From contig CAZNRH010000001.1 of assembly GCA_964575755.1 (NCBI GenBank), positions 181,347 to 224,396 of the forward strand: a DNA stretch of 43,050 nucleotides, given 5' to 3'. Position numbers and translations under genes: made by a program. Positions 6,810 to 42,947 of the stretch are shown one piece after another (positions within the stretch are counted from its first letter, which is position 1; each line of letters starts with the position of its first letter). The notes beneath the pieces were generated by a model. The model saw only the letters and a list, made by a program, of their open reading frames with translations. It had not been told where the DNA came from and did not search any database. This stretch comes from an uncultured Candidatus Saccharibacteria bacterium. GTDB taxonomy: Bacteria; Patescibacteriota; Minisyncoccia; Phycocordibacterales; JABMNX01.

Positions 6810-7418
6810 TTACATACGGTTTTTGAGAGCGCTTTTAATTGTTTCTGTGTCGGAGTATTCGAGTTCTGAGCCTGTTGAAAGACCTCGTCCAAGGGTTGAG
6901 ACTTTTATATCAGTTGTAAAGATTATAGGCTCAAGCACTCTTTGAATATATTGTATGGTGTTTTCTCCTTCTGGATTTATCGAGAAGGCGAGTATAATCT
7001 CTTTTAATCCTTCTTTTTGGCGTGCTGTAACCACACGCTCTAACTCTTTTGTTCGTATCGATTTGTCAGGATCTTTGTCTAGAATCGGCACCGTCCCACC
7101 AACTACAAAATAGTATCCATCATACCCCTTAGCCCTTTCTATATTATCTAAGTCCACATCTTTCTCTACAAGCATGAGAGTGGAAGACTCTCTGTTTTTA
7201 TTCGCGCATATTAAACATAGTTCTTTGTGATTAGAATGAAAACGGCTACACATTGTACATGCTTTAGTATCATCTTTAATTGAACCAATAAGTCGTATTA
7301 ATTCACTTCTATAACTATGAGATGAAGAAAGTAAAAAATACACAAAGCGACTTGCTTGGCGTGGACCAATACCAGGTAATCGTTTTAAAAGTTCTGTAAG
7401 TTTTTGAATACTATCCAT
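6810..7418 (-). CDS. recR: recombination protein RecR
   Basis: N-terminal LPGIGPRQA helix-hairpin-helix, a C4 zinc finger (C..C....C..C) and a Toprim region. Confidence 0.9.
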   Translation of the reverse strand: MDSIQKLTELLKRLPGIGPRQASRFVYFLLSSSHSYRSELIRLIGSIKDDTKACTMCSRFHSNHKELCLICANKNRESSTLMLVEKDVDLDNIERAKGYDGYYFVVGGTVPILDKDPDKSIRTKELERVVTARQKEGLKEIILAFSINPEGENTIQYIQRVLEPIIFTTDIKVSTLGRGLSTGSELEYSDTETIKSALKNRM

Positions 7419-7457
7419 TGTTTAGGAATTAAGAATAATGAATTAGGAAGTAGAGGG

Positions 7458-8831
7458 TTAGAAGTCGTCATCGTCTGAAGAACTACTGGTGTCTCCAAAG
7501 TCACTATTATCAATTGATAGGAATGTTGTTCTTTTCTCGTCGAAGTATAAGTCTATCTTACCGGTGGGACCATTTCGATGTTTTTCTACAAGAATCTCAG
7601 CTATGTTTGGTTTATCTGAGGTCTCATTCATTTTATCATCTCTGTGAATAAACATTACTACATCAGCGTCCTGCTCAATAGAACCAGAGTCACGCAAGTC
7701 TGAAAGACGAGGGCGACCCCTACGTTGCTCAACTGCACGTGATAGCTGTGAGAGTGCTATTACAGGTATGTCTAGCTCACGTGCCATACCTTTGAGTGCT
7801 CGAGAAATCTCAGTGACCTGTTGAACCATAGAGTCAGAATTTTTCCCTTGTGTTGGCATAATAAGCTGAAGATAATCGACTATGATAAGTTCAAGACCTT
7901 TCTCGTGTTTTAGGCGACGTGCTACGGAACGCATTTGAAGAACGTTACTTGAGGACTTGTCGTCAATATAAATAGGTGCTTCAGATAAGACACTTAGTGC
8001 CTCTTGAAGCTTGTCGAACTCTTCATCTGTTGAAAGGTTACCCGTACGCAGTTTCCATGCGTTCACGTTCGATTGCGCCGCAAGCATACGGTCTACGAGC
8101 TGTTGTGAGTCCATCTCAAGAGAAAATATACCAACTGGTGTCTTATGATTAACTGCGGCTTGGCGTGCTATATCGAGTGCTAGAGCGGTTTTACCCATTG
8201 ACGGTCGTGCAGCAATAATTATTAAATCTGATTTCTGGAATCCTGCGAGGAGATTATCGAGACCTTTAAAACCACTTTTTATTCCACGAATTTCATCCTT
8301 TGATTGGTGGAGAAGTTCTATTCTTTCCCAGGCTTCAGTAAGGGTTTCTTTAATGGTTATAAACTTCTGGAGGGTGGGGGAGTTGGTTACTTCAAAAATA
8401 CTTGATTGAGCTGAATCGAGAGTGTACTCGATATCATTTTCTTCATTGTAGCCGAGTTCTGAAATATGGTCAGCGGCCGAGATTAGGTTACGCATCATAA
8501 ACTTCTTTTGTACGATATCTGCGTAATGTTTGGCGTTTGCTGCAGAAGGCACAAAGTCTACGAGTTCAGATAAATATGTACCACCACCTATTTGGTCAAA
8601 TTGCTTTTTTTCTTTTAGTTTTGTTGAGAGTGAGAGTATGTCGATTGGTTCGTTTTTTTCAAAAAGTTCAAGCATTGAATTATATATAATTCGATGCTTT
8701 TCACTGTAAAAGGAGTCTGGCTTTACGGTATCTATAATGTCGTGCATTGCTTCTGGTTTAAGCATGATAGAACCCAGAAGAGCTTTTTCCGAGTCTAGAT
8801 TTTGAGGTGGGATACGTACGCCTTTTGCCAT
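7458..8831 (-). CDS. dnaB: replicative DNA helicase DnaB
   Basis: PPQNLDSEKALLGSIM N-terminal domain, Walker A ARPSMGKT, and the conserved C-terminal RecA-like region LSQLSR..E.R.....RP.LSDLR.SG.IEQDAD. Confidence 0.95.
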   Translation of the reverse strand: MAKGVRIPPQNLDSEKALLGSIMLKPEAMHDIIDTVKPDSFYSEKHRIIYNSMLELFEKNEPIDILSLSTKLKEKKQFDQIGGGTYLSELVDFVPSAANAKHYADIVQKKFMMRNLISAADHISELGYNEENDIEYTLDSAQSSIFEVTNSPTLQKFITIKETLTEAWERIELLHQSKDEIRGIKSGFKGLDNLLAGFQKSDLIIIAARPSMGKTALALDIARQAAVNHKTPVGIFSLEMDSQQLVDRMLAAQSNVNAWKLRTGNLSTDEEFDKLQEALSVLSEAPIYIDDKSSSNVLQMRSVARRLKHEKGLELIIVDYLQLIMPTQGKNSDSMVQQVTEISRALKGMARELDIPVIALSQLSRAVEQRRGRPRLSDLRDSGSIEQDADVVMFIHRDDKMNETSDKPNIAEILVEKHRNGPTGKIDLYFDEKRTTFLSIDNSDFGDTSSSSDDDDF

Positions 8832-8932: not shown

Positions 8933-10447
8933 CTACTGCTTACTCTTAACCAGCTCAGGGCCATAGTCTGTATCAGAGACATCAAAGCCTTTTTTGGCTA
9001 ATTTTTCTCGTATTGAGTCTGCGGACTTCCAATCTTTATCTTTTCTTGCTTCTTCTCGTTTCTGTACGAGCTCTTGGATATCATCAGGTACTTTTTTCAC
9101 CTCTATTTTTTTTGTCTCACCTTTAAGCATAGTATCCATTTGTTTATATGATTCTATAAATCCAATACTCAATACACGATTCATGTCTAAAATCGTGACA
9201 CGTTTATCTTTCTTGTTTACAGATTTGTCACTCATTAGCTCGTGCAGGAGGGCTATTGATTGGGCGGTATTAATATCGTCATTAATAAACTTATGAAATC
9301 GCTCTTGGTATGAAGAGTTAATAGTGCCGTTTCGTGAACCGAGATCTAGAAATTGTTTATGAAGCTTGATAAGTGCTGTGTTGGCACCCTCAAGTGCCTC
9401 CCATGTGAAATTCATAGGTGAGCGGTAATGTCCTGTTAGTAACCAATAGCGGTATGTGAAGGCGGGGAAGCCTCTGTCTGCAAGGTGACGAAGATATATA
9501 GTATTTCCTTTTGATTTGCCAATTCTTTTGTTTTCTATGGTGATAAATGCATTATGCATCCAGTAATTTACAAATTTCTTACCGGTTACTGCTTCTGTTT
9601 GAGCTATTTCATTGTTGTGATGAATTGGTTTGTGGTCTAGTCCACCTGTGTGAACATCAAACTGTTTGCCTAAGTATTGTGAAGACATAGCACTACACTC
9701 TATATGCCAACCAGGGAAACCAACTCCCCATGGTGATTTCCATCCGAGTTCTTTACCAGAGTCTGTCTTTGTTGTTGAGAACTTCCAAAGAGCAAAGTCT
9801 TGCTGTGTGTGCTTGTCTTTTCTTTTTCCTATGCGAGAAATTGTATCTTCATCTTCTTTAGAAATACCACCAAGTGCTCCATAGTTTTTAAACATTTTTG
9901 TATCAAAATATACACCATCCTTAAGTGTGTAAGTGTAGCCTTTTTCTTCTAGGGTTTTTATAAACGCAATTTGCCCATCTATATGCTCACTTGCTCGCGG
10001 GAAAGCAAATGGTGTTTTGATATTCAACTCTTTTAAATCTTCTTTAAATTCTTTTATATATTTAGTACCAATTTTCTTCATCTCTGTGAGCGTGATAGAT
10101 AGGCCCTCTTTTTTAAGCGCAGTCATCATTTTATCGTCACCACTGTCTCCGTCTGACACAAGGTGTCCTACGTCGGTGATATTAATAATATGCTTCACTT
10201 TATAACCGTTGTATTCAAACATCCGCCTTAGTATGTCAGAGAATATATAAGAACGAAGATTACCTATATGAGCAGTGCTGTAAACTGTTGGCCCACAACT
10301 GTACATACTCACACCACCTTGTCTTATAGGCTCAAACTGCTCCTTCATTTTTGAAATAGAATTAAAAAGTCGTATTGGTGTCGACTTCTTTTTTACTGCA
10401 GAGTTATTATATTTTTTCTTAAATAACAAAAATAGGTCGAAATTCAT
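8933..10447 (-). CDS. cysS: cysteinyl-tRNA synthetase
   Basis: MYSCGPTVYSTAHIGNLRSY (HIGN) and a KMSKS-like RIGKSKGN motif, with class I CysRS architecture. The start is set at MNFDLF (10447), the element's 3' ATG, not the track's 10474. Confidence 0.9.
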   Translation of the reverse strand: MNFDLFLLFKKKYNNSAVKKKSTPIRLFNSISKMKEQFEPIRQGGVSMYSCGPTVYSTAHIGNLRSYIFSDILRRMFEYNGYKVKHIINITDVGHLVSDGDSGDDKMMTALKKEGLSITLTEMKKIGTKYIKEFKEDLKELNIKTPFAFPRASEHIDGQIAFIKTLEEKGYTYTLKDGVYFDTKMFKNYGALGGISKEDEDTISRIGKRKDKHTQQDFALWKFSTTKTDSGKELGWKSPWGVGFPGWHIECSAMSSQYLGKQFDVHTGGLDHKPIHHNNEIAQTEAVTGKKFVNYWMHNAFITIENKRIGKSKGNTIYLRHLADRGFPAFTYRYWLLTGHYRSPMNFTWEALEGANTALIKLHKQFLDLGSRNGTINSSYQERFHKFINDDINTAQSIALLHELMSDKSVNKKDKRVTILDMNRVLSIGFIESYKQMDTMLKGETKKIEVKKVPDDIQELVQKREEARKDKDWKSADSIREKLAKKGFDVSDTDYGPELVKSKQ

Positions 10448-10567
10448 CCCGTTAGAAATAAGACACAGAAACATATGTAACTGAGTATCTTATTTGGTTA
10501 TAATTTATAATATCGACTTCCATGTTCTTTTTAAGGTTAAGTGTCTGTGATTTCTAACGGGATTCAT
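10445..10567 (-). repeat. start-codon-anchored helix element, copy C5 (between the corA stop and the cysS start)
   Basis: The sense 5' arm ATCCCGTTAGAAAT (10550-10563) pairs perfectly with the 3' arm ATTTCTAACGGGAT (10446-10459). The second helix is AGACAC with GTGTCT. ATGAAT flanks both sides. The 5' ATG lies 15 nt after the corA stop. Confidence 0.85.
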
Positions 10568-11625: not shown

Positions 11626-12873
11626 ATGAAACAACTTGATCGACAACAAAAAATAAACATAGGCATAGGAGCTCTTGTACTAGCTACTGGTATATTTTTC
11701 TTAGGTATGTTTATTGGAGAAAATAATGTAAAGCAATCAGAAGTAAACTCTTTTTCAGAAAAAATATCTGAGAGTCCAGATGATGTAGATTTCACACCTT
11801 TGTGGACCGCGTGGAAAACCATTGATGATAAATATACTTCCTCAAAGTCAGGCGAAGTGGTAACAGACCAAGAAAAAGTGTGGGGCATGATAAAGGGGTT
11901 GGCGAGATCTTTAGACGATCCATATACAGTGTTTTTTCCACCAGCTGATGCTGAGATATTTGAAGCTGATATAAGTGGCAACTTTGAAGGTGTTGGTATG
12001 GAGATTGGTATACGAGATGGAATCCTGACAGTTGTGTCACCACTTAAAGATACTCCAGCGTATCGTGCTGGGATTTTAAGTAGAGACAAGATAACAGAGA
12101 TAGATGGAGAGAGCACGGAAGAATTTTCAGTCGACAGAGCAGTGAAGCTTATACGAGGAGAGCGAGGCACAGAAGTAGTATTTACAATCGCAAGAGAGGA
12201 CGAATCTGAACTACTAACAATATCAGTGGTACGTGACGTTATACAAATACCGACCATTAGTACTGACTCAGAAGACGGGGCTGGATTAAGAGAAGATGGA
12301 GTATACGTTATTCAACTCTATAACTTCTCAGCATTTTCTCAACATTTATTCAGGAAGGCATTGCGTGAGTTTATTTCTTCTGGGTCAAATAAATTAATTC
12401 TTGATCTGCGTGGTAACCCAGGCGGGTATCTTGAGGCATCTGTGGATATGGCAAGTTGGTTCTTGCCAGTAGGTAAAGTTGTAGTAGAGGAAAGTTTTGG
12501 TGGAGATAAAAAATCAGTAGTCTATCGTTCTCGTGGATATGATGTATTTAATGAAAACTTAAAAATGGCAATAGTTATGAATCGTGGATCTGCATCCGCT
12601 TCAGAAATATTAGCTGGAGCACTTAGAGAGCATGATATAGCCACGTTAATAGGGGAGCGTTCTTTTGGAAAAGGCTCAGTACAAGAACTTATTGATATTA
12701 CAAGCGACACCTCTTTAAAGGTCACGATAGCGAGATGGTTAACACCGCTTGGCAACTCAATTTCAGATGAGGGACTAAAGCCAGATATAGAAGTCGAGAT
12801 GACAATAGAAGACATAGAAAATGGCACAGATCCACAAATCGAGAAAGCCGCAGAATTTCTTATATCGCTCTAA
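11626..12873 (+). CDS. carboxy-terminal processing peptidase (S41 family, Ctp/Prc-like)
   Basis: N-terminal TM, a PDZ region, RGNPGGYL, SASASEILAGAL and GERSFGKGSVQ motifs. Confidence 0.9.
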   Translation: MKQLDRQQKINIGIGALVLATGIFFLGMFIGENNVKQSEVNSFSEKISESPDDVDFTPLWTAWKTIDDKYTSSKSGEVVTDQEKVWGMIKGLARSLDDPYTVFFPPADAEIFEADISGNFEGVGMEIGIRDGILTVVSPLKDTPAYRAGILSRDKITEIDGESTEEFSVDRAVKLIRGERGTEVVFTIAREDESELLTISVVRDVIQIPTISTDSEDGAGLREDGVYVIQLYNFSAFSQHLFRKALREFISSGSNKLILDLRGNPGGYLEASVDMASWFLPVGKVVVEESFGGDKKSVVYRSRGYDVFNENLKMAIVMNRGSASASEILAGALREHDIATLIGERSFGKGSVQELIDITSDTSLKVTIARWLTPLGNSISDEGLKPDIEVEMTIEDIENGTDPQIEKAAEFLISL

Positions 12874-12978
12874 AAGATATAACCTAGGCATGGTTATATG
12901 TTGACAGTGTTGTTTTGTTGCGTTGTTTTAAGTCTAAAAATAGCCTAAATGTTGTTGAGTGTGTATACTACCAAGCAT

Positions 12979-13099
12979 ATGAATCCCGTACGAAATTACG
13001 GACACAAAATCAAAACATGGAGAAAACGTCGATATTTAATAAAAAATTTAATCTAGAGACAAGGACTGTTTAAGTTCGTGTCCTATTTCGTACGGGATG
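12979..13099 (+). repeat. start-codon-anchored helix element, copy C3 (upstream of rplI); the best-preserved copy
   Basis: ATCCCGTACGAAAT (12983-12996) pairs perfectly with ATTTCGTACGGGAT (13085-13098). The second helix is GGACAC (13000-13005) with GTGTCC (13078-13083). Mini-ORF at 13017-13073. TATACT (12964-12969) lies 9 nt before the 5' ATG. Confidence 0.9.
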
Positions 13100-13540
13100 A
13101 AAGTAATATTACTCAGTGACGTGAAGGGTTCGGGGAAGAAATATGAAGTTAAGGATATTTCTGATGGATATGCTATGAACTTTTTGCTTCCCAATGGTCT
13201 TGCAGAGCGCGCTACACCTGAGCGTATAAAACGGATGGAAGAAATTAAAAAAGAACAGACACAAGAAGAACGTATTCAAGAAGATTTACTGGAAAAGACA
13301 TTAGCTTCTTTAAAAAGTGTTCACTTAGAAATAGAGGCAAAAGCAAGCGACAAAGGGGGTCTTTTCAAAGGTATTACAGTGGCTAATATAGTTGAGGAAT
13401 TAAAGAGACAGGTACGTGTTAATATTCCAGCTGAAATAATCGTATTGGAAAAACCAATTAAGGAAGTGGGAAAGTATACAATAGGAGTTTTAATGGGAGA
13501 AAATAAAGCCTCATTCAAACTAACTGTTTTGGCTAAATAA
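13097..13540 (+). CDS. rplI: 50S ribosomal protein L9
   Basis: [37 protein letters not shown] is a canonical L9 N-terminus, and the 147-aa length fits. Confidence 0.9.
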
Positions 13541-13598
13541 AGATTGAAAAATAAAAAACACTTATTATATAGTAAGTGTTTTTTATTTTTCAATCTTT
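13539..13598. terminator. 26-bp perfect inverted repeat with an 8-nt loop; bidirectional terminator between rplI and rpmA
   Basis: AAAGATTGAAAAATAAAAAACACTTA (13539-13564) pairs with TAAGTGTTTTTTATTTTTCAATCTTT (13573-13598). Verified base by base. Confidence 0.7.
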
Positions 13599-13609
13599 AT
13601 AATTATTTT

Positions 13610-15261: not shown

Positions 15262-15966
15262 ATGAAATCAGACGAAAAGACAAAACATAAAATGGTGGCG
15301 AAGAAGACATGTCTTGTTAAGAGGGAACTGCGATATATAGACGATGAGAGTATCGCTGAGAGGGTAGGGGGAATTACATCAGAGTTTATTAAAGGCTTTG
15401 AGCTACTTCGCAAGTACGACCTCGCTGCTACTTTCTTTGGTTCTGCTAGATGTAAGCTGAATAGTAAGTCTTACCAATTTGCTGTTGACTTGGCACACAG
15501 GCTTTCAGATTCAGGATTTACTATTATTACAGGAGGTGCAGCAGGAGTCATGGAAGCTGCAAATAAAGGGGCTTGTGAAGCAGGAGGTAACTCAGTTGGT
15601 GTTAATATAGAACTACCTAAAAAACAATCTGGAAACAATTACACAACAGACTCGGAAGATTTTGACCACTTCTTTACGCGTAAAGTAATGCTTACATATG
15701 CTTCCGAGGTTTACGTATATTTTCCAGGTGGGTTTGGTACACTCGATGAATTTTTTGAAATTGCTACACTTATCCAAACAAAAAAGATTGAGTCAATTCC
15801 TATTATATTAGTAGGAAAAGAGTTTTGGACACCACTACTTGAGTGGATCAAAAAAGACCTTATAAACAAACACCATACAGTGTCTGATGGAGATGTTAAC
15901 ATCTACACACTGGTAGATTCTGTTGATGAGGCTTATGATGTAATTATAAATAAGGTTTGTGAGTAG
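15262..15966 (+). CDS. LOG-family / TIGR00730 Rossmann-fold nucleotide-binding protein
   Basis: TGGAAGVMEAANKGA and PGGFGTLDEFFE motifs. TGcTATACT (15243-15251) lies 10 nt before the ATG. Confidence 0.85.
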   Translation: MKSDEKTKHKMVAKKTCLVKRELRYIDDESIAERVGGITSEFIKGFELLRKYDLAATFFGSARCKLNSKSYQFAVDLAHRLSDSGFTIITGGAAGVMEAANKGACEAGGNSVGVNIELPKKQSGNNYTTDSEDFDHFFTRKVMLTYASEVYVYFPGGFGTLDEFFEIATLIQTKKIESIPIILVGKEFWTPLLEWIKKDLINKHHTVSDGDVNIYTLVDSVDEAYDVIINKVCE

Positions 15967-16694: not shown

Positions 16695-16737
16695 AATAAA
16701 ATAAACGGCTGGAGTTACTCCAGCCGTTTATTTTATT
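16695..16737. terminator. 20-bp perfect stem with a 3-nt loop (AATAAAATAAACGGCTGGAG-TTA-CTCCAGCCGTTTATTTTATT)
   Basis: Verified base by base. Lies downstream of the transglycosylase gene. Confidence 0.75.
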
Positions 16738-18114: not shown

Positions 18115-18351
18115 TTACATATTTCCTTCTCTGTGACCTTCCCCACCTACTGAACATGTTTTGCAACATGATTTGTGAGTAAAGATTTCATATACTGCAG
18201 CGAGACCTATTAGGATATAAAGTACACGAGAAGCGGTTGCTTCTTGTCCTCCTAATAGACTTCCAAGATCCCATCCAAATGCTCCAACAGCAAGCCAGTT
18301 AAGACCCCCTACTGCAAGCAATAGAAATGCAACTATGTGAACTGATTTCAT
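18115..18351 (-). CDS. DUF378 family membrane protein with a Cys/His-rich C-terminal tail
   Basis: The LLAVGGLNWLAVGAFGWDL...RVLYILIGLAAVY pattern is typical of DUF378. Confidence 0.8.
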   Translation of the reverse strand: MKSVHIVAFLLLAVGGLNWLAVGAFGWDLGSLLGGQEATASRVLYILIGLAAVYEIFTHKSCCKTCSVGGEGHREGNM

Positions 18352-18418
18352 AAAAAGTTATTGATTTATTATATTTATAATATCGACCACATTGGTTAGC
18401 TTTCTGTTATACATTCAT
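18349..18418 (-). repeat. truncated or degenerate copy (C6) of the start-codon-anchored element, upstream of the DUF378 gene
   Basis: The sense strand reads ATGAAT...CTAACC..ATGTGGTCGATATTATAAAT...ATGAAA. It shares ATGAAT, CTAACC and the GTCGATATTATAAAT core with copy C5. It lacks the terminal helix, and the two ATGs are 67 nt apart instead of ~118. Confidence 0.45.
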
Positions 18419-21424: not shown

Positions 21425-22544
21425 GTTCAATGCCTATATTAATTAATTCTTCTGCTATGGTGCGTGCAGCGTCTGGACGAGAAAAGGTTTTTGCACTCTC
21501 TGACATACGTTTCATTTCCTCTGGGTTATTAAACAGACGGCTTATTTCTGTATTGAGTAAGTGAGGCGTTAAATTGTTTTGTTCAATCACAATAGCTGCT
21601 CCTGATCGTGCGTAGGTAAATGCATTAGTGCTCTGGTCTCTGGAAATATTTCTTGGAATTGGAATTATAATACTTGGTATTCCAGCCGCAGCTGTCTCGA
21701 AGATTCCACCAGAACCAGCTCTCGTAACTACTAAGTCAGCTGCCCCATATGTCATACGAAGAGCAAGTACGTTTAAAAGTCCAAACGCGTGATACCTAGA
21801 TTTGTTTGGATGGTCTGCGATTATTACATCAACTCTGCTTTTAAGCTCTTCTATATTTTTACTCCCTACTTGATGTATTACCTGAAACTTTGGGAGTAAT
21901 TCAGCTAAAGCATCAACGACTGCGTTGTTGATTGCTTGAGCGCCTTGGGACCCTCCGAGTATAAGAATTACGGGTACATTTGGCTCCAAGTTTAAGTATT
22001 CAAAAGCCCCTTCTTTTTCCGGTTTAAATAATTCTTTTCTAATTGGATTGCCTGTATGTGCAACTCTGTTGTGTGGTAATTTCTCTGCGAGCTCTGGGTA
22101 CGAGATAGCAACACTTTTTGCAAACTTAGCGGTCCAAGCATTTGTTCGTCCCATGATTGAATCTGACTCATGCACAACAACCGGTATATTCAATATCCGC
22201 GCAGCTAAAACAGTTGGAAAGCTTGCATACCCACCCTTACTAAATACTACATCAGGATAGATGAAATAAAGTTTAATCAAAGCAAGGAATGCCCCAAACA
22301 GAGTCTTAACCATATCTATGTAATTCCAAATAGATGCATAGTTTCGTAATTTCCCAGCGCTACTATAATAATGCTCTATATTAAGCTCAAACAGAGCTCG
22401 TTCTTCAAACGGCTTTGGTCCAAAGTAATAAAGTGTGGGTTGAAGTAGTTTCTTTTCAGCGACTATTGCTTTAATTTCTTGTGCTACTGCAATAAGAGGG
22501 TAAAAATGCCCACCACTTCCTGATCCTGTTAAGACTATTCTCAT
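21414..22544 (-). CDS. murG: UDP-N-acetylglucosamine--N-acetylmuramyl-(pentapeptide) pyrophosphoryl-undecaprenol GlcNAc transferase MurG
   Basis: The GSGGHFYPLIAV N-terminal motif, GGSQGA and TRAGSGGIFE are typical of MurG. Confidence 0.9.
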   Translation of the reverse strand: MRIVLTGSGSGGHFYPLIAVAQEIKAIVAEKKLLQPTLYYFGPKPFEERALFELNIEHYYSSAGKLRNYASIWNYIDMVKTLFGAFLALIKLYFIYPDVVFSKGGYASFPTVLAARILNIPVVVHESDSIMGRTNAWTAKFAKSVAISYPELAEKLPHNRVAHTGNPIRKELFKPEKEGAFEYLNLEPNVPVILILGGSQGAQAINNAVVDALAELLPKFQVIHQVGSKNIEELKSRVDVIIADHPNKSRYHAFGLLNVLALRMTYGAADLVVTRAGSGGIFETAAAGIPSIIIPIPRNISRDQSTNAFTYARSGAAIVIEQNNLTPHLLNTEISRLFNNPEEMKRMSESAKTFSRPDAARTIAEELINIGIEHES

Positions 22545-23632
22545 GTTTTTATATATTTAGAGATATTTAAGATAATACCTACACTACCTAGTGCAAAAAG
22601 CATTGCTGTACCACCATGACTAATAAAAAGTAATGGCAAACCAGTAAGCGGGAAAACGCCAAGCATCGAGCCGATGTTAATAAACGACTGGGATATAATA
22701 AGTATAACAATTCCAACGATAAGCAGTCCACCAAAATAGTCTGGTGCTTTGGCAGCAATCTTGAGTCCCCTGAAAGAGAAAGAGAGAAATAAAAGTATAA
22801 GAACAAATGCGCCAGCAAAACCAAACTCCTCTGCTGCCACTGCAAATATTGAATCCCCTATTGGCTCTGGTAGATAGTTAAATTTTTGTACACTTTGTCC
22901 AAATCCTCTACCCAACGCTCCACCAGAACCAATTGCAATAAGTGATTGGTTTAACTGGTAGCCTGATTCTTGTAAGTTTGCACTTGGTTGTATAAATGTC
23001 TCAAGTCGTTCTTTAAGATACGGTCGTTGGTATACAAGAACCGAGAATGCCAATACCGCCACCAAAAGTAGAATAAATAAATCACGAGCCTTTCCTCCTG
23101 CAGTTATGTACATAGATATTCCAGCGGAAGCCAGTACAAGCACCGTGCCTGTGTCTGGTTGAAGAAGTAGGAGTGCACTCGGTATACCCATGATGATCGT
23201 AAATGGGATTAGTCCATGTCTAAACTCAGCAATTTTAAATCGTACTGAAGAAAGGTATGTTGCCAGGTATAGTACAAAGCCAAGTTTTAGGAACTCTGCT
23301 GGTTGAAACGAGAAACCAAATAAATATATCCACCTACGAGCTCCGTTTATTTCAAAACCAAGGTCAGGCACAAACACAAGCAGTACTCCTATTATAGAAA
23401 GAATAAAAATATAGAGTGATAGAGGCTTCCATAGCCGATATCTAATCTTTGACATAATAAAGAGAGATATAGTACCCAAAAACATACCAAAGAAAATCTG
23501 ACTAAATGCCACTGAGGAGAACTTTGCACCCTCCCGAGCCAGCAACCCAAGTGACGCAGAGGTAAAAATAAAAAAACCGAATACAACAAGTACTCCGGTT
23601 ATCAGAAGAAGTGAACGGTCAATTGATTTCAT
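22541..23632 (-). CDS. ftsW: SEDS-family peptidoglycan polymerase FtsW/RodA
   Basis: About 10 TM segments with the conserved QPAEFLK, LQPDTGT and LPEPIGDSIFA motifs. The TGA stop overlaps the murG ATG (ATGA). TATACT (23641-23646) lies 8 nt before the ATG. Confidence 0.9.
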   Translation of the reverse strand: MKSIDRSLLLITGVLVVFGFFIFTSASLGLLAREGAKFSSVAFSQIFFGMFLGTISLFIMSKIRYRLWKPLSLYIFILSIIGVLLVFVPDLGFEINGARRWIYLFGFSFQPAEFLKLGFVLYLATYLSSVRFKIAEFRHGLIPFTIIMGIPSALLLLQPDTGTVLVLASAGISMYITAGGKARDLFILLLVAVLAFSVLVYQRPYLKERLETFIQPSANLQESGYQLNQSLIAIGSGGALGRGFGQSVQKFNYLPEPIGDSIFAVAAEEFGFAGAFVLILLFLSFSFRGLKIAAKAPDYFGGLLIVGIVILIISQSFINIGSMLGVFPLTGLPLLFISHGGTAMLFALGSVGIILNISKYIKT

Positions 23633-23653: not shown

Positions 23654-23679
23654 AAATGCCACATGTGCCTGTGGCATTT
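23654..23679 (-). terminator. hairpin AAATGCCACA-(6 nt)-TGTGGCATTT
   Basis: 10-bp perfect stem downstream of the hydrolase pseudogene. It belongs to a family of related terminator hairpins in this window. Confidence 0.6.
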
Positions 23680-26229: not shown

Positions 26230-29200
26230 TTACTCTGTCGATGTTTCCGCTGATGCCTCAACTGTCACGGTACGAGTTACCTTATTGGCAATATTACCGG
26301 CAATGTCTGACACATTATAGATTACAGTGTACACCCCTGCAGTGGCAGTATCTACTGTGTTCTCCACCGTAACAGATGATGTGACATCACCATCAGTGTC
26401 ATCAAGAGCTGTCGCACCTTCATCAAAGTAGGTTTCATCTACAACAAGGATTATCTCTTCTTTACCAATAAGTGTGATGATGGGTGATGTGGTGTCTTTC
26501 ATAGTGAGTACAGTAACCGCCCTCGTAACCTCTGTTGCTTGATTGCCTGCAGCATCGGATACGTTGTAAGTGATAGTGTACACTCCTTCTGTATCAGTAA
26601 GTACACTGTCGCCCCCTATAATAATATTTGTAGTAATGTCACCATCTACATCATCTGTTGCCACAACACCTTCCTCTGTGTAACTATCTCCAACGTTAAG
26701 CTCAAAAGCATTTTCCGCATTGAGTGTAATTACAGGTGAAGTGATATCGACTGGAATATTATTTGATGAAGTACTAGAGGCAACACCTCCACCATTCTCA
26801 CTTGAATCATCTGCTTCTGTGTACGGATCATAGACAACCACTTGTCGCTCTGCTGTTGTTGTGTTTCCATCGTTATCAGTTGTGCGATAAATAATCGTAT
26901 ACGTGCCAACTTCTGATGTATCAATTTGAATATTGCTGAAATCGCCCACATCCACATCATCCACACTCGCATAAAGTCCAAGATTATTGCCCTTATCATC
27001 AGTAATGACAGCGCCGAGGTCAGAATATATAAATCCGACTTCAATTTCTGCTGGATTGTTGCCTAATATTGTTATTGTTGGAGAGATCAAAGAGGTATTA
27101 TTTGCGTCACTGGAATCTGTTCCGCCAGGAGTTGTTCCAGACAAAAGTGTTTTCAATTCTGTTAATTCTTTTTTGTTCAAGCATACTTCACCACCAGTAT
27201 CTCCTATACACAATTCCTCTTTTGCAATAATTCTACCAACCACTAATGTTCCGTCACTTTCTTGATCTGTTACGAATTCCTCTACTGTCCCAACAAGAGT
27301 AAGTGAATTCACTTGACCCTGCAGGACTTCAATCTGTTCCTGCTGATCTTGAATAGATTTTACCAAAAGTGGTGTAATCCTACCGTAATCAACACCCCAC
27401 AATTCATCACTTTCAAGTTTAGCAGATACAGCTTCTGGATATATTTCATAAAGTTCTTGAGCAATAAAACCTATTGTATCAATATCACTGGTCTTCATAT
27501 TGAAATCCCTAACCTTAATTTTAAGCAAATCTTCAAGCGTATAATGAGTATCGCGAATATTTTCTTTAGCTCGTCTATCAGAAGTTGTATTATAAACGAC
27601 TCCTCCTGCACCATCACCACTAATTGTCGCTATCATTGTATTATCACCATCAACAAACCCTACAAATTTAGTATTACTACCTGGATTGATGTTTGGACCT
27701 GTTCTAATATATATACCTGAAGCATAATCGTTCGTGCTGTCATTACGAAATACTGTCTGGAAACCAGCTGATTCGGTCCCAATAGAATTAAAATGCCCTA
27801 CAGAATCAATATCCACTTTCTTGACATTATTTGTCAAAAATTCAAGAATACCATCACCAGTACTGAACATCCCGCTATCCGTATCACCTGCAGAATCAAA
27901 AGTATATCCATTATTATTTACACCTCCCGCACCAGGGGTTCCTCCTCTTGCTCTTATTCCTCCCGTAACATCTAAGCTAACAGCTGGACTAACATTACTT
28001 ATTCCAACCTTTCCAGAACCAGCTCCTAGAATCAAATCACCCCACCCAAATCCTGGATTCAAAACATTAATATAACCTTTCATCGTTGATCCGTTAAATC
28101 CAAATCGTAAACCACTGTTGGTATCGGTATTATTTGAAATGATTACTTGTTGGTTGTCTGTGTCATTGCTAATATACTCTGGCACTTCTATCAATAAATT
28201 AGAAATAGAAGTTGTTGTGCCAATACTGACATATCCACTACTGTTTATCCTCATTCTTTCATTATTATTGGTATAAAATTGCAAAAGACCGTCCGAGGTG
28301 CTGAACATTCCACTATCCGTATCACCTGAAGAATCAAAAGCATATCCATTATTATTTACACCTCCCGCACCAGGAATTCCTCCTCTTGCTCTTATTCCTC
28401 CAGTAACATCTAAACTAACAGCTGGACTTATTGTCCCAATGCCTATTTTTCCGTCTTGTTGAAGAGTCAACACAGTTCCGCTTCCTGGATCATCAAATGT
28501 TGTGCTAATTTTTAATTTATGAGAATCGCTTGCGTCTGTTCCAAAACTCCAATCTGTGCTAATCAAGCCAGAATAAAAAGTTATATACTCGTCGCTAGTA
28601 GAATTATCTGGAGCATAAAATCTAAGCGATGCTTCACCACTTCCTATTTGTTCAATCTTTGAAATAAGATAATTATCGTCACCATAGATATGTAATTTTT
28701 CGTTAGGTGAATCCGTCCCAATTCCTACTTGTCCCTGCGTTGCATCCACAAACAATGCGTTGTAATTTATTCCTTCTGCCACTCTAAAATCACCCATTAT
28801 TTCCAATGGTGTGGCAGGGCTTGTTGTGCCAATTCCGACACGATTATTAAATGAATCAACAACCAATGTATTTGTATCGAATCGCGCGTCAGTGGCAAAG
28901 GTAGAAGTTGAGTTAAACCACGATTGTCCTGTGTTTGTAAGAAGTGTTGACGATGCATTACCTAATGTAGAAAGTCCTGTAAACCATGATGTCCCAGATA
29001 CTGAAAATTGTGTTGTGCTAGCATTACCAAAAGTAGCAAGGTTTGTGAACCATGATTTATCTGATACTGAAAGCCGAGTTGAAGATGCGTTACCCAAGGT
29101 TGTCAATCCAGTAAACCAAGAAAGTCCGCTGTTAGTTAATTGTGTTGTTGACGCATTGCCGAGAGTTGTTTGTCCGGATACCACTAAATATCCTGAAAGT

Positions 29201-34978: not shown

Positions 34979-36382
34979 TTAATATTCTTCAATGAATCTA
35001 GTAAGTAGTCTCACTGGTTCTCCAGCGGCTCCATTAGAGAGATTATCACTAGGTACTGTTGTCATGCGCGGTGCTATATCTATATGTGCCCATACACACC
35101 CCCTGGGATAGTTTTTTGTGAATTGGTATAGAAACATTCCTCCGTTAATAGCTCCTCCATATCTTGGGTTCTTTGTAGCGAGGTTAGCTACATCAGCTAT
35201 TCTTCCTTGTACACCTTCGTTATATTCCTCCCATAGAGGTAGTGGCCAAACATAGTCCCCTGTTTCCTCTCCAAATTGAGTAAGTTTTGCCACTAAATTA
35301 CTGTCTTGAGACATTACAACAGATGCTTGTTGACCTAATGCCACAAGAGATGCTCCTGTAAGTGTTGCTACATCTATAACTGCTTTTGGATTGTATTTCT
35401 TTGCGTATGTTAGTGCATCAGCTAATACAAGCCTCCCCTCCGCATCAGTATCTACTACTTCAATAGTTTTCCCTGACATAGATTTAAGTACGTCTCCTGG
35501 ACGAAATGAGCTTCCTGACACCATGTTTTCAACTGAAGGAATTAAAGCGATCACATTTTTCTTTAATTTAAGGCGCGCCACGAGTGCGATTGTCGCCATA
35601 ACTGCGGCACCGCCAGACATATCCATATGCATTCCGGATAACCCACCGCCTATTTTTAAATTAAGTCCACCGCTGTCAAAAGTAACTCCTTTACCTACAA
35701 GCACAATTGGTTTTTCGCTTTTCTTTCCACCTTTATATTCCATAACAATAAACTTCGGTTCTTCTGGTGAACCTTTTGCAACTCCAAGAATTGCACCCAT
35801 TTTTAATTTTTCTAGTTCTTTTTTACCAAGAGATGAAGTCTGTATTTTTGTATTTCTAGAAAGTCTTTTAGCGTGAGCTGTTAATATTCTAGGTGTCATA
35901 TCGCCACCCGGAGTGTTCGACATAAGTCTGCACTCGTTAACCATTTCTCCAATTACCCTACCTTTAGCTATACCTTTTTTAATTTCAGAACTTTTTACGT
36001 TTGTAATAGATATTTCCTCTATATCTCCCCAGCCTGCTTTTGGTTTAGTTTTAAAATCATGGAACTCGTAACCAGCCATCAGTAAATTTTGTGCAACAAT
36101 AGACCCGAGCTCTTTTGGAGCCAAGTTTGATATGTTTTTAAACTCATTAATATCTATAGATATCTTATTTACTTTATATAACTTGGCTGTTCGAACAACT
36201 CTCCTAATGACTTTTATAAATTTCCGGAAGTTATCTTTCTCTGCTTTTACTATCTTTATTTCAATTCTAGTTAGTTTTTTTGCATCCTCAATAAATCTAG
36301 TTTGCCCTTTTTCAGTGAAAGTTATTTGAGTTATTTTACTAGGTTGTTTTACAGTTTTTTTTTCTTGCGTAGTTATTTTCAT
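34979..36382 (-). CDS. pepA: leucyl aminopeptidase (M17)
   Basis: VGKGVTFDSGGLNLK and VDTDAEGRLVLADAL are M17 active-site motifs. The start is the 3' ATG of element C4. Confidence 0.9.
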   Translation of the reverse strand: MKITTQEKKTVKQPSKITQITFTEKGQTRFIEDAKKLTRIEIKIVKAEKDNFRKFIKVIRRVVRTAKLYKVNKISIDINEFKNISNLAPKELGSIVAQNLLMAGYEFHDFKTKPKAGWGDIEEISITNVKSSEIKKGIAKGRVIGEMVNECRLMSNTPGGDMTPRILTAHAKRLSRNTKIQTSSLGKKELEKLKMGAILGVAKGSPEEPKFIVMEYKGGKKSEKPIVLVGKGVTFDSGGLNLKIGGGLSGMHMDMSGGAAVMATIALVARLKLKKNVIALIPSVENMVSGSSFRPGDVLKSMSGKTIEVVDTDAEGRLVLADALTYAKKYNPKAVIDVATLTGASLVALGQQASVVMSQDSNLVAKLTQFGEETGDYVWPLPLWEEYNEGVQGRIADVANLATKNPRYGGAINGGMFLYQFTKNYPRGCVWAHIDIAPRMTTVPSDNLSNGAAGEPVRLLTRFIEEY

Positions 36383-36500
36383 CCCGATAGTAATAGGACA
36401 CCGACTTAAACAGTCTTTGTACTAAAATTAAACTTTTTGTTAATAATTAATTTTGTTTTCATATATTATGTTTATGTCCGTGATTTCGTACGGTATTCAT
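36380..36500 (-). repeat. start-codon-anchored helix element, copy C4 (between the aspS stop and the pepA start)
   Basis: The sense 5' arm ATACCGTACGAAAT (36483-36496) faces a partly decayed 3' arm ATTACTATCGGGAT (36381-36394). The second helix is GGACAT with GTGTCC. Mini-ORF at 36406-36462. The 5' ATG lies 10 nt after the aspS stop. Confidence 0.8.
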
Positions 36501-38864: not shown

Positions 38865-38894
38865 TTAAATGCCCCAAGTACCTGGGGCATTTAA
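38865..38894 (-). terminator. hairpin TTAAATGCCCCA-(6 nt)-TGGGGCATTTAA
   Basis: Perfect stem downstream of tyrS. It is related to the hairpins at 23654-23679 and 42915-42947. Confidence 0.65.
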
Positions 38895-42914: not shown

Positions 42915-42947
42915 CAAAAAATACCCCAAGTACCTGTGGCATTTTTT
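42915..42947. terminator. imperfect hairpin ATACCCCA-(6 nt)-TGTGGCAT flanked by A- and T-runs
   Basis: Differs at two positions from the hairpin at 38865-38894 and has the same AGTACC loop. Confidence 0.45.

What the first reader, a model, noticed from the sequence alone, without database searches (positions are those of the whole stretch)
12979..13099. Family of ~120-nt helix-closed elements whose 3' end is exactly the start codon of the downstream gene (six copies in 43 kb)
**Copies and host genes**
- C1, 1802-1921 (+), P-type ATPase.
- C2, 4616-4737 (+), rmuC.
- C3, 12979-13099 (+), rplI.
- C4, 36380-36500 (-), pepA.
- C5, 10445-10567 (-), cysS.
- C6, 18349-18418 (-), DUF378; truncated.

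**Shared layout**
- Consensus: ATGRAT-CCCGTACGAAAT-nnn-GGACAC, then an AT-rich core containing GTCGATAWTTAAT, then GACTGTTTAAGTC, then GTGTCC-T-ATTTCGTACGGG-ATG.
- The two ends form a helix of 14 plus 6 bp. The A and U of the gene's AUG are its last two pairs.
- All copies have the same orientation as the gene they precede.
- No SD lies before the 3' ATG.

**Interpretation**
- The downstream genes are functionally unrelated, which argues against a metabolite riboswitch.
- I do not recognise this as any described RNA family or MITE.
- Working hypotheses: (a) a mobile palindromic element that targets or survives only at start codons; (b) a processing or translation-control leader.
Basis: seen in the sequence. 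Interest (0 to 1): 0.92.

Follow-up and report, generated by a model that had tools for sequence, protein, structure and literature searches.

The report
Mobile elements that parasitise start codons
The five ~115-nt hairpin-closed repeats are small mobile DNA insertions, apparently stripped-down relatives of a tiny nuclease gene, that land exactly on gene start codons in ultra-small Patescibacteria and rebuild the start codon, a way of spreading I could not find described.

Summary
Five full copies (C1-C5) lie in the window, each ending at the ATG of a real gene and in the gene's orientation. C6 is at most a remnant without arms.

They are inserted DNA rather than a regulatory leader. Each unit is [T]CCCG...CGGG[A], with 13-bp terminal inverted repeats, flanked by a 4-bp direct repeat (TGAA or TGGA). 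The terminal A plus the repeat's TG rebuilds the ATG. Syntenic relatives have clean empty sites at cysS, rplI, rmuC and the ATPase gene.

The family is spread across Patescibacteria. In a set chosen without reference to the ATG, 55 of 59 copies abut ATG or GTG.

Longer elements with the same ends, the same repeat and the same start-codon position encode one 86-95-aa GIY-YIG nuclease. It is read from the host's original ATG, and its stop (TGA) overlaps the rebuilt ATG. One such element (L218) has the window's exact arm subtype. The 115-nt copies are therefore non-autonomous derivatives.

In the main subtype a stop-free mini-ORF runs to a TAA 4 nt before the gene's ATG (29 of 33 open), implying termination-reinitiation. 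The window's copies have lost this.

How start codons are found, and whether the nuclease moves the element, are unknown. No Rfam match or paper was found.

The parts
1807..1919 (+). C1: inserted element (T-CCTG...CGGG-A) at the start codon of a P-type ATPase gene (1919-4594).
   Evidence: Left repeat TGAA at 1803-1806, right repeat TGAA at 1920-1923. Host-derived upstream ATG at 1802-1804, rebuilt start ATG at 1919-1921. CM 83 bits; sequence. Empty orthologous sites in L191 and L193. The upstream ATG opens only MNPVRSHEH*, with the stop 87 nt before the gene's ATG.
4621..4735 (+). C2: inserted element at the start codon of rmuC (4735-5817).
   Evidence: Repeats TGGA at 4617-4620 and 4736-4739. 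Upstream ATG at 4616-4618, rebuilt ATG at 4735-4737. CM 95 bits. Empty site in L191...gattaacgcATGGATTTAACC. The mini-ORF is 31 codons, with the stop 23 nt before the ATG.
12984..13097 (+). C3 (the reported copy): inserted element at the start codon of rplI (13097-13540).
   Evidence: Repeats TGAA at 12980-12983 and 13098-13101. Upstream ATG at 12979-12981, rebuilt ATG at 13097-13099. CM 97 bits. Fold -38.3 kcal/mol, z = -5.6. Empty sites in L190 and L193. In L191 the same site is filled by another subtype. The mini-ORF is 25 codons, with the stop 40 nt before the ATG.
12964..12969 (+). -10-like hexamer TATACT, 9 nt upstream of the original rplI ATG (inferred promoter; the gene looks leaderless or nearly so).
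   Evidence: Seen in the sequence. The same motif stands before the empty rplI sites of L190 (TATAAT) and L193 (TATACT). Across the family, TAnnnT hexamers peak 6-9 nt upstream of the 5' ATG. No -35/-10 pair was found by the consensus scan.
10447..10562 (-). C5: inserted element (TTAG arm subtype) at the start codon of cysS (8933-10447).
   Evidence: Repeats TGAA at 10563-10566 and 10443-10446. Upstream ATG at 10565-10567, rebuilt ATG at 10445-10447. CM 93 bits. Empty sites in L190, L191 and L193, where cysS follows corA by 5-18 nt. The mini-ORF is 20 codons, with the stop 57 nt before the ATG.
36382..36495 (-). C4: decayed copy at the start codon of pepA (34979-36382).
   Evidence: Repeats TGAA at 36496-36499 and 36378-36381. 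Upstream ATG at 36498-36500, rebuilt ATG at 36380-36382. CM 72 bits. Only 8 of 13 terminal pairs are kept. Host is Peptidase_M17.
18349..18418 (-). C6: possible old remnant before the DUF378 gene; not a confirmed member.
   Evidence: It has no terminal repeats and shares only ATGAAT and GTCGATATTATAAAT with C5. The CM did not detect it. The same arm-less sequence is present in relative L190.

Best explanation
**What it is**
- The ~115-nt units are non-autonomous, MITE-like derivatives of a very small mobile element of Patescibacteria.
- The full-length form (~280 bp) consists of one 86-95-aa GIY-YIG nuclease gene. The first and last codons of that gene are themselves the terminal inverted repeats.

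**How it sits in the genome (shown)**
- The element inserts into the first bases of a gene and duplicates about 4 bp, usually TGAA.
- Its last base is A (or G in one variant). That base plus the duplicated TG rebuilds an ATG (or GTG) for the host gene.
- The host's original ATG, with whatever promoter or initiation signals precede it, now heads the element's own reading frame.

**How the host gene stays expressed (inferred)**
- Ribosomes start at the original ATG and translate through the element: the nuclease in full-length copies, a meaningless stop-free mini-ORF in most short copies.
- They terminate at a TGA overlapping the rebuilt ATG (ATGA), or at a TAA 4 nt upstream of it, and reinitiate on the host gene.
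- These lineages rarely use Shine-Dalgarno sequences and often start transcription at or near the ATG, so no ribosome-binding site is displaced.

**The window's copies**
- They belong to the GTACG arm subtype (C5 to the GTTAG subtype).
- They are post-insertion relics in which the mini-ORF has acquired early stops.
- There the short upstream ORF probably just melts the terminal helix that otherwise buries the host AUG. This step is inferred.

**Mobility (inferred)**
- The GIY-YIG nuclease is the only candidate mobility enzyme. Whether it cuts and joins DNA itself or relies on host repair is not shown.
For: **Insertion**
- Orthologous empty sites differ from the window by exactly the element plus one copy of TGNN, at four loci.
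- The flanking repeat covaries with the host's second codon across loci, for example ATGCG/ATGCG, ATGGGT/ATGGGT and ATGAG/ATGAG. It is an exact 4-of-4 match in 63 of 94 copies.
- The outer pair covaries, T..A or C..G. C..G copies give GTG starts.
- A few non-start insertions still show repeats (TTCA, CGGA, TAAA), and there is a nested copy with CGCG.

**Start-codon association**
- In the set picked by the 5' arm or by the CM only, 52 of 59 copies are followed by ATG and 3 by GTG. At least 48 head an ORF of 60 aa or more.
- All copies are in the gene's orientation.

**Nuclease partner**
- L026, L105 (two copies), L210, L194 and L218 carry a PF01541 GIY-YIG ORF between the same ends, at a start codon, with the same repeat.
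- Of the 120 best homologues listed, 58 begin MxPVR(D/N), which is the 5' arm read from the host ATG, and about 115 end RFLSLT(G/A/V)-stop, which is the 3' arm.
- In the GTACG subtype, 54 of 120 end FLFRTG-stop. This corresponds to TTC CTA TTT CGT ACG GGA TGA, the window's 3' arm. MNPVRN corresponds to CCC GTA CGA AAT, the window's 5' arm.
- The arm subtype of the short copies matches that of the nuclease element in the same contig (L105 GTAC, L026 GTTAG).

**Coupling**
- In GTTAG-type copies whose length is 1 mod 3, 29 of 33 are stop-free in the frame set by the upstream ATG, against 1 of 33 and 0 of 33 in the other frames. They end at a TAA 4 nt before the ATG.
- Copies whose length is 2 mod 3 end at an overlapping ATGA. 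Indels come in threes (112, 115, 118 nt).
- The interior shows no codon periodicity, so the constraint is 'no stop' rather than a particular peptide.

**Host context**
- An SD-like motif precedes 3 of 73 element-bearing starts and 10 of 80 background genes.
- A TAnnnT hexamer lies 6-9 nt upstream in 39 of 73 element-bearing starts, against 25 of 80 background genes.
Against: - No activity of the nuclease on these ends or targets has been shown. GIY-YIG enzymes are not known, to my knowledge, to act alone as transposases.
- The short copies' interiors show no detectable homology to the nuclease gene. Only the termini are shared (5' 12-13 nt, 3' about 17 nt).
- The window itself holds no nuclease gene.
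- All five window copies, and most GTACG-type copies (5 of 28 open), lack the full mini-ORF. The coupling mechanism therefore cannot be what expresses these particular genes in its simple form.
- Sequence preference for ATGRR plus purging of intragenic insertions predicts only about 29% of copies at starts in this window, against 5 of 5 observed. The targeting step is unexplained.
- The leaderless inference rests on -10-like hexamers only. cysS and rmuC sit directly behind the preceding gene in relatives.
Confidence: 0.75

Rival explanations
1. The element is a conventional MITE moved in trans by an unidentified standard (for example DDE) transposase. The GIY-YIG ORF found between the same ends is a passenger, or a host of the ends, and not the mobility enzyme.
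For: - Terminal inverted repeats plus a short target duplication are the classic signature of DDE transposition.
- Head-to-tail tandem copies separated by 3-5 nt resemble IS circle or dimer junctions.
- A sister family with the same 12-nt ends but other cores and a TTTA/TAAA duplication exists in other contigs.
- No biochemical precedent is known to me for a lone GIY-YIG transposase.
Against: - No longer element with these ends and another ORF was found in about 190 loci.
- The nuclease ORF fills the full-length element completely, and its N- and C-termini are encoded by the repeats themselves.
- This arrangement is kept in most of the 240 listed proteins, out of more than 4,600 hits in the two searches.
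- Arm subtype and nuclease termini covary.
Confidence: 0.15
2. The start-codon position is produced by selection alone. Insertion is only weakly sequence-specific (TGRR), and copies survive only where they do no harm, which in gene-dense, SD-poor genomes means exactly at start codons in the sense orientation.
For: - Rare copies at non-start sites with other duplications exist.
- TGAA makes up 55 of 94 duplications, which suggests sequence preference.
- The design (rebuilt ATG, stop-free ORF, ATGA overlap) makes start-codon insertions uniquely harmless.
- A full-length copy can express its nuclease only when placed behind a host ATG.
Against: - In the window there are about 46 intergenic non-start ATGRR sites against 19 at starts. 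Neutral intergenic copies should then be common, yet the window has 5 of 5 at starts and the unbiased set 55 of 59 followed by ATG or GTG.
- The ends are symmetric, so an antisense insertion would also rebuild the ATG. No antisense copy was seen.
Confidence: 0.3
3. Host-gene expression is rescued by RNA processing and not by translational coupling. The long helix formed by the two ends in the mRNA is cut (for example by RNase III, as reported for Neisseria Correia elements, from memory), giving a short-leader or leaderless mRNA for the host gene.
For: - The transcript would fold into a 13 + 6 bp helix with the AUG at its base.
- CPR genomes retain RNase III (PMC12641178).
- The window's copies lack a complete mini-ORF and need some other route to expression.
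Against: - There is no excess of G-U over A-C mismatches in the helix (16 against 17), so nothing indicates selection on the RNA strand.
- The stop-free frame ending at TAA-N4-ATG or at ATGA is strongly maintained in the main subtype, which processing would not require.
- C4 has lost much of the helix, yet it still heads pepA.
Confidence: 0.15
4. The element is a cis-regulatory RNA leader (riboswitch-like or protein-binding) recruited by many genes.
For: - Sense orientation, a fixed position at the AUG and a stable fold.
- Some loosely conserved interior motifs (GTCGA..TTTAT..TAATC..ATAGG).
Against: - No Rfam match at gathering score, and nothing better than E = 2.4 below it.
- Host genes are unrelated.
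- Close relatives have empty sites, so the genes work without it.
- Interior entropy is about 1.5 bits per position, and only the terminal repeats covary.
- Target duplications and tandem or nested copies are features of mobile DNA.
Confidence: 0.04

Closest known systems
Bacterial MITEs co-transcribed with neighbouring genes, e.g. Neisseria Correia elements (from memory)
   Same: - Short (about 100-160 bp), non-coding, multi-copy.
- Terminal inverted repeats that form a long hairpin in transcripts.
- Short target duplication.
- Presence/absence polymorphism between relatives.
   Different: - Correia elements duplicate TA, lie in intergenic regions in either orientation, and relate to no nuclease gene.
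- Here about 93% of copies sit exactly on a start codon in the sense orientation, rebuild the ATG with their terminal base, and in the main subtype keep a stop-free frame that ends next to the host ATG.
Rickettsia palindromic elements (RPE; from memory)
   Same: Palindromic selfish DNA that persists inside expressed genes because it is arranged so that translation is not ruined.
   Different: RPEs are read in frame as part of the host protein. These elements sit at the first codon and are separated from the host protein by a stop, followed by restart (TAA-N4-ATG or ATGA). Only one in-frame fusion was seen (L045).
Free-standing GIY-YIG homing endonuclease genes (phage T4 seg/mob genes, I-TevI family; from memory)
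   Same: - A small selfish gene that encodes only a GIY-YIG nuclease (PF01541).
- It is wedged between host genes, often with overlapping stop and start codons.
   Different: - Homing endonucleases copy themselves into the one cognate empty allele by homologous repair, and they have no inverted repeats or target duplications.
- This family has 13-bp inverted ends, duplicates about 4 bp, and occupies dozens of unrelated genes.
- The protein (86-95 aa) lacks the long DNA-binding extension of I-TevI.
UPF0213 / YhbQ / COG2827 small GIY-YIG proteins (solved: BH0048 1ZG2, EF2693 1YWL)
   Same: Closest sequence relatives with a solved structure (E = 4e-8 and 7e-4). Same size and single-domain architecture.
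   Different: - I know of no report that these are mobile or bounded by repeats.
- The Patescibacteria proteins carry repeat-encoded termini (MNPVR..., ...RFLSLTG or ...FLFRTG) that the alignment to BH0048 does not cover (query residues 12-71 only).
Non-intron insertions encoding GIY-YIG proteins in CPR rRNA genes (PMC11270868)
   Same: Same phylum, and GIY-YIG ORFs in insertions that are not group I or II introns and do not look like homing. They may be the same element family.
   Different: Those lie in rRNA genes. The passages read do not mention inverted repeats, target duplication or a start-codon association. Identity with this family was not tested.
Translational-bypass 'byp' inserts of Magnusiomyces mitochondria (from memory)
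   Same: Mobile inserts in expressed genes that are neutralised at the level of translation and not by splicing.
   Different: Byps are hopped over by the ribosome within a coding sequence. Here the insert is translated and followed by termination-reinitiation at the gene's first codon.

Membership tests
MITE (non-autonomous inverted-repeat transposon) | Terminal inverted repeats | tested here: met
   The 13-bp ends are perfect in 69 of 94 copies. The helix and its covarying subtypes are shown.
MITE (non-autonomous inverted-repeat transposon) | Target-site duplication flanking each copy | tested here: met
   A 4-bp repeat (range 3-5), exact in 63 of 94 copies, that varies with the host gene.
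MITE (non-autonomous inverted-repeat transposon) | Empty orthologous sites that differ by the element plus one repeat copy | tested here: met
   cysS, rplI, rmuC and the ATPase gene in L190, L191 and L193.
MITE (non-autonomous inverted-repeat transposon) | Small, multi-copy, with no gene for a mobility enzyme | tested here: met
   96-201 nt in length. Five copies in 43 kb and up to about six in the 12.6 kb of L105. There are only short or meaningless ORFs.
MITE (non-autonomous inverted-repeat transposon) | An autonomous partner with the same ends that encodes the transposase | tested here: inconclusive
   Partners with the same ends and the same insertion behaviour exist and encode a GIY-YIG nuclease. 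That this protein is the transposase is not shown.
Known IS families (DDE, serine or tyrosine, HUH transposases) | Element-encoded transposase of a recognised catalytic class | tested here: not met
   The only ORF in full-length elements matches PF01541 GIY-YIG. No other ORF lies between paired ends in the loci.
GIY-YIG homing endonuclease gene | GIY-YIG catalytic domain | tested here: met
   PF01541 at E = 7e-14 and 1e-15 for full-length relatives. There is none in the window itself.
GIY-YIG homing endonuclease gene | Spread into one cognate site by homology-directed repair, with no inverted repeats and no target duplication | tested here: not met
   Many unrelated host genes, inverted repeats and 4-bp duplications.
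Cis-regulatory RNA (riboswitch or leader) | Conserved structured core with covariation beyond a terminal stem, and functionally related downstream genes | tested here: not met
   Only the terminal helix is predicted or covaries. The interior is variable, host genes are unrelated, and Rfam gives nothing.
Translationally coupled upstream ORF (termination-reinitiation) | An upstream ORF whose stop overlaps or lies within a few nt of the downstream start, maintained by selection | tested here: met
   For the GTTAG subtype, 29 of 33 copies are open with TAA-N4-ATG, and others end at ATGA. This is not met in the window's five copies, where stops lie 23-87 nt upstream. Actual reinitiation cannot be tested with these tools.

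The most novel reading that the evidence does not exclude
The 86-95-aa GIY-YIG nuclease would be the sole mobility enzyme of a previously unrecognised class of bacterial DNA transposon. Its inverted ends are inside its own coding sequence. It actively finds the first codon of genes, possibly by way of transcription or translation start regions. It borrows the host's start codon for its own expression, and it pays the host back by rebuilding the ATG and coupling translation. The window's 115-nt copies would be its non-autonomous offspring.
Probability: 0.45. Interest if true: 0.92.

Novelty: new variant of a known kind. Interest (0 to 1): 0.85.

Why it matters
- **A new lifestyle for selfish DNA.** Instead of avoiding genes, or splicing itself out, the element sits on the start codon, uses the host's initiation signals for itself, and hands the ribosome on.
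- **A possible new transposon class.** If the GIY-YIG protein proves to be the mobility enzyme, this would add a class to bacterial transposons. It would also provide a very small (under 300 bp) element that inserts at start codons, which could be used as a tool.
- **Insight into Patescibacteria gene expression.** The element is an independent read-out of how these organisms, most of them uncultured, start translation. They are SD-poor, often leaderless, and appear to reinitiate efficiently.
- **Annotation errors.** Gene callers extend host genes into the element (cysS is called as 513 aa instead of 504 aa). They also call the mini-ORFs or nuclease N-termini inconsistently. Recognising the family would correct many start-site annotations in CPR genomes.
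- **A strain-level marker.** Presence/absence polymorphism between close relatives makes the element usable for distinguishing strains.

Tried and rejected
- **Rfam.** Searched at gathering score and at permissive E-values. No hit at gathering score and nothing better than E = 2.4 below it.
- **Viral contigs.** The 5'-arm pattern gave 39 hits, but none was confirmed by the covariance model. They are chance matches.
- **A functional conserved peptide.** Rejected. The interior shows no third-position excess (entropy 1.48, 1.62, 1.62), and the peptides are unrelated between the arm-encoded ends.
- **RNA-level selection on the helix.** Not supported. G-U 16 against A-C 17.
- **A promoter inside the element driving the host gene.**
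  - There is no conserved TAnnnT position in GTTAG-type copies, and only 9 of 26 GTACG-type copies share one.
  - The hexamer TATTTC, 7 nt before the ATG, lacks the conserved final T.
- **A longer element with these ends and a classical transposase.** Only pairs of separate short copies were found.
- **Short copies as simple internal deletions of the nuclease gene.** No interior homology above shuffles; 78 of 300 shuffles score as well.
- **Other readings considered from the anatomy and dropped.** These were a group I intron or reverse splicing, integron attC, a Xer/dif-like site, and ribosome hopping.
  - The element is too small for an intron core.
  - The core-site order is opposite to that of attC.
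  - Empty targets have no recombinase arms.
- **A strict 'transcription start site' target.** Weakened, because cysS, rmuC and pheT sites lie directly behind the preceding gene.
- **Literature.** Nine searches found no description of the element.
Full report
**1. The observation**

GTGTCC-T-ATTTCxxxCGGG-ATG.
- The copies are C1 1802-1921 (+), C2 4616-4737 (+), C3 12979-13099 (+), C4 36380-36500 (-) and C5 10445-10567 (-).
- The 3' arm with up to 3 mismatches occurs 9 times in the window, counting both arms. Shuffles give 0.79, and none of 100 reaches 9.
- C3 folds as a helix-closed unit (-38.3 kcal/mol, z = -5.6).
- The genes behind the copies are a P-type ATPase, RmuC, L9, Peptidase_M17 and CysS.
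- The 3' ATG is the native start. L9 begins MKVILL both here and in relatives without the insert.
- C6 has no arms and was not found by the covariance model. It shares two short motifs with C5, and the same arm-less sequence is present in relative L190, so it is at most an old remnant.

**2. It is a widespread family, always at a start codon**

A scan of one genome per species with the 3' arm found 29 loci. Nearly all are in Patescibacteria (Saccharibacteria, Paceibacterota, Doudna-, Kaiser- and Lloydbacteria), and the elements stand in front of unrelated genes such as murG, rpmJ, rplB, proS, ychF and prfB.

That pattern contained the ATG, so I made an unbiased set in three steps.
- I built a covariance model from 25 copies with the flanks removed.
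- I scanned metagenome contigs with the 5' arm alone.
- I kept only the hits the model confirmed.

In that set 52 of 59 copies are followed by ATG and 3 by GTG. At least 48 head an ORF of 60 aa or more. Every copy is in the gene's orientation, with sense-strand scores roughly double the antisense ones. The 39 pattern hits in viral contigs were chance matches. The window itself is patescibacterial: its CysS is closest to proteins named Ca. Pacebacteria or Kaiserbacteria, at about 70% identity.

**3. It is inserted DNA with a target duplication**

The 5' 'ATGRA' is not part of the element. It repeats the first bases of the gene and changes with the gene: ATGCG/ATGCG, ATGGGT/ATGGGT, ATGAG/ATGAG, and ATGGA/ATGGA in C2.

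The base next to CCCG and the base after CGGG covary. They are T..A in 84 copies and C..G in 6. In the C..G copies the base before the left repeat usually does not match the G that follows CGGG. The best description is therefore a unit [T/C]CCCG...CGGG[A/G] flanked by a 4-bp duplication (range 3-5).
- The duplication is exact in 63 of 94 copies.
- It is TGAA in 55, TGGA in 14 and TGAG in 8.
- The terminal A plus the duplicated TG rebuilds the ATG. C..G elements give GTG starts.

Syntenic contigs from relatives give the proof (CysS 89%, 78% and 70% identical).

| Site | Relative without the insert | Window |
|---|---|---|
| cysS | L190: ...aaaaccatttATGAGTTTCAAC | ...cctatcatATGAA[T...A]TGAATTTCGAC |
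| rplI | L190 and L193: ATGAAAGTA directly after a TATAAT or TATACT box | element between ATGAA and TGAAAGTA |
| rmuC | empty in L191 and L193 | element present |
| ATPase | empty in L191 and L193 | element present |

The rplI site of L191 is filled by a different arm subtype. This points to repeated use of the same site.

Other features of mobile DNA are also present.
- A few copies lie at non-start sites with other duplications (TTCA, CGGA, TAAA).
- One copy is nested inside another, with duplication CGCG.
- There are head-to-tail tandems.

**4. The helix is a pair of transposon ends**

The arms occur as covarying subtypes: GTTAG/CTAAC, GTACG/CGTAC, GATAG/CTATC and GTTCA/TGAAC. That would fit either an RNA helix or co-evolving ends. 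Among imperfect pairs, G-U (16) and A-C (17) are equally common, so nothing indicates selection on the sense RNA. The interior is very variable, at about 1.5 bits per position. Rfam has no match.

**5. A reading frame is conserved, not a peptide**

From the upstream, host-derived ATG the main (GTTAG) subtype reads MNPVRN(H/R)G(H/R)...(S/A)SYF-stop. The stop is a TAA inside the 3' arm, 4 nt before the gene's ATG.
- Among GTTAG copies whose length is 1 mod 3 (112, 115 or 118 nt), 29 of 33 are stop-free in that frame. The other two frames give 1 of 33 and 0 of 33.
- Copies whose length is 2 mod 3 (110, 113 or 119 nt) instead end at a TGA overlapping the ATG (ATGA).
- Copies whose length is 0 mod 3, which would fuse to the host protein, nearly all have early stops.
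- Interior entropy is the same at the three codon positions (1.48, 1.62, 1.62). What is kept is the absence of stops, meaning passage of a ribosome, and not a particular peptide.

This is the signature of termination-reinitiation coupling. It is inferred and not measured.

**6. The full-length partner**

While inspecting a tandem in L105 I found longer units (about 280 bp) between the same ends, at the same position. They encode an 86-95-aa protein with a GIY-YIG catalytic domain (PF01541, E = 1e-14 to 1e-15). Its closest solved relatives are the UPF0213 proteins 1ZG2 and 1YWL.

Four loci show the same arrangement at the DNA level.
- **L026.** The ORF runs in frame from the host-derived ATG through the 5' arm (ATG AAT ACC GTT AGA GAT = MNTVRD). 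It ends ...TTC CTA TCT CTA ACG GTA TGA, with the TGA overlapping the host ATG.
- **L210.** The element sits exactly between pheS and pheT, with ATGA overlaps on both sides and an ATGAA repeat.
- **L194.** This is a C..G element that leaves a GTG start.
- **L218.** This is a full-length element with the window's exact subtype: aaacatATGAC-T-CCCGTACGAAAT...CTATTTCGTACGGG-ATGACagaaa.

The two protein searches returned 3000 and 1667 homologues, named where a name is given as 'GIY-YIG nuclease family protein' from Kaiser-, Pace-, Nomurabacteria, Minisyncoccia and similar groups. The 120 best of each search were listed and examined.
- Of the 120 best for one query, 58 begin MxPVR(D/N) and about 115 end RFLSLT(G/A/V).
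- Of the 120 best for the GTACG-type query, 54 end FLFRTG. This is the translation of the window's 3' arm.
- Within a contig, the arm subtype of the short copies matches that of the nuclease element (L105, L026).
- The short copies' interiors are not detectably derived from the nuclease gene, which is usual for MITEs.
- The window holds no nuclease gene.

**7. Host context**

Only 3 of 73 element-bearing starts, and 10 of 80 ordinary genes of the window's lineage, have an SD-like motif. TAnnnT hexamers peak 6-9 nt before the upstream ATG in 39 of 73 element-bearing starts, against 25 of 80 background genes. Many hosts therefore look leaderless or nearly so, and an insertion at the ATG does not separate a ribosome-binding site from its start codon. 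Not all targets are transcription starts, however. cysS, rmuC and pheT follow the preceding gene directly.

**8. What remains open**

- **Targeting.** The window has 371 ATGRR sites: 19 at starts, about 46 intergenic and not at a start, and 296 inside genes. Sequence preference plus loss of intragenic insertions predicts about 29% of copies at starts. The observed figures are 5 of 5 in the window, and 55 of 59 followed by ATG or GTG in the unbiased set.
- **Orientation.** The ends are symmetric, so an antisense insertion would also rebuild the ATG. None was seen.
- **Enzymology.** No GIY-YIG protein is known to me to transpose DNA by itself. One untested possibility is staggered cutting at both flanking repeats and at the target, followed by joining of matching 4-nt ends. 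That would also explain the dominance of TGAA.
- **The window's own copies.** All five have early stops, 23-87 nt before the gene's ATG, and C4's helix is decayed. They are older relics. I infer that the short upstream ORF still opens the helix for initiation at the host AUG.

**9. Comparison and verdict**

The short elements meet every structural criterion of a MITE. The partner is not a recognised transposase class, and it fails the definition of a homing endonuclease gene because it occupies many unrelated sites and has inverted repeats and duplications. The nearest concepts are listed below.
- Correia-type MITEs.
- Rickettsia palindromic elements.
- Free-standing GIY-YIG endonuclease genes.
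- The non-intron GIY-YIG insertions reported in CPR rRNA genes (PMC11270868).

Nine literature searches found no description of a start-codon-specific, repeat-bounded GIY-YIG element.

I rate the short elements as a new variant of a known kind (MITE). I put the chance that the whole system is a new transposon class at about 0.45.

Noticed in passing
L047 1555-1599, L061 103-140, L145 1691-1728, L133 2102-2136, L031 1753-1811, L124 3256-3321, L040 33-98, L049 5021-5114, L065 1280-1366, L026 724-750: A sister family has the same 12-nt ends (C..G outer pair) but only a 3-70-nt core, and mostly duplicates TTTA or TAAA. In the orientation with 3' flank GTAAA, most copies lie 15-30 nt before an ATG, just upstream of a Shine-Dalgarno motif (for example GTAAAGGAGGagcgccaATG). 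The wider superfamily may therefore sit at translation-initiation regions in SD-using bacteria too.
   Followed up: partly
window, all gene starts (e.g. 7458-8831, 15262-15966, 22541-23632): This lineage is SD-poor: an SD-like motif precedes 10 of 80 genes. About a third of genes have a -10-like TAnnnT hexamer 6-9 nt before the start codon, which suggests many leaderless or very short-leader mRNAs.
   Followed up: partly
L191 ~7291-7500 (upstream of rplI, minus strand): The rplI start codon that carries C3 in the window carries, in a 78%-identity relative, a different arm subtype (CCCGATAGTAAT) with an extra GC-rich insert. The closer relative L190 is empty. This suggests independent hits on the same site, or loss.
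   Followed up: partly
L057 6132-6366; L105 ~4620-5022 and ~12245-12650; L130 ~5192-5254: Head-to-tail tandem copies are separated by ATGAT (112 of 115 nt identical in L057). There are tandems of a nuclease element and a short copy, and a 63-nt element nested inside another with duplication CGCG.
   Followed up: partly
window 8933-10474 (-): Gene callers extend cysS into the element (513 aa called, against 504 aa from the native ATG). Nuclease ORFs are likewise called with spurious N-terminal extensions (for example P0184, P0222). This looks like systematic start-site mis-annotation caused by the element.
   Followed up: no
window 23654-23679, 38867-38892, 42919-42944: There are three copies of a 26-nt palindromic hairpin, AAATGCCCCAAGTACCTGGGGCATTT, at gene ends. 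They are probably a shared terminator-like repeat (D9).
   Followed up: no
window 13537-13600, 16695-16737, 6763-6804: Near-perfect AT-rich palindromes of 21-32 nt per arm lie between convergent genes. They are likely bidirectional terminators (I4, I23, I24).
   Followed up: no
window 27826-28014 and 28264-28452: A 189-nt direct repeat (83% identical) lies inside the 1321-aa ORF at 26230-30195. It is an internal protein repeat (D1).
   Followed up: no
L045 872-985: This is the one copy in which the frame from the upstream ATG stays open through the whole element and into the host gene. It would give an N-terminal extension of about 40 aa instead of a stop and restart.
   Followed up: no
L119 5607-5843: A more distant GIY-YIG homologue (43% identity) has no recognisable terminal repeats and is followed by a tRNA-like sequence. 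It may be a non-mobile or differently bounded relative.
   Followed up: no
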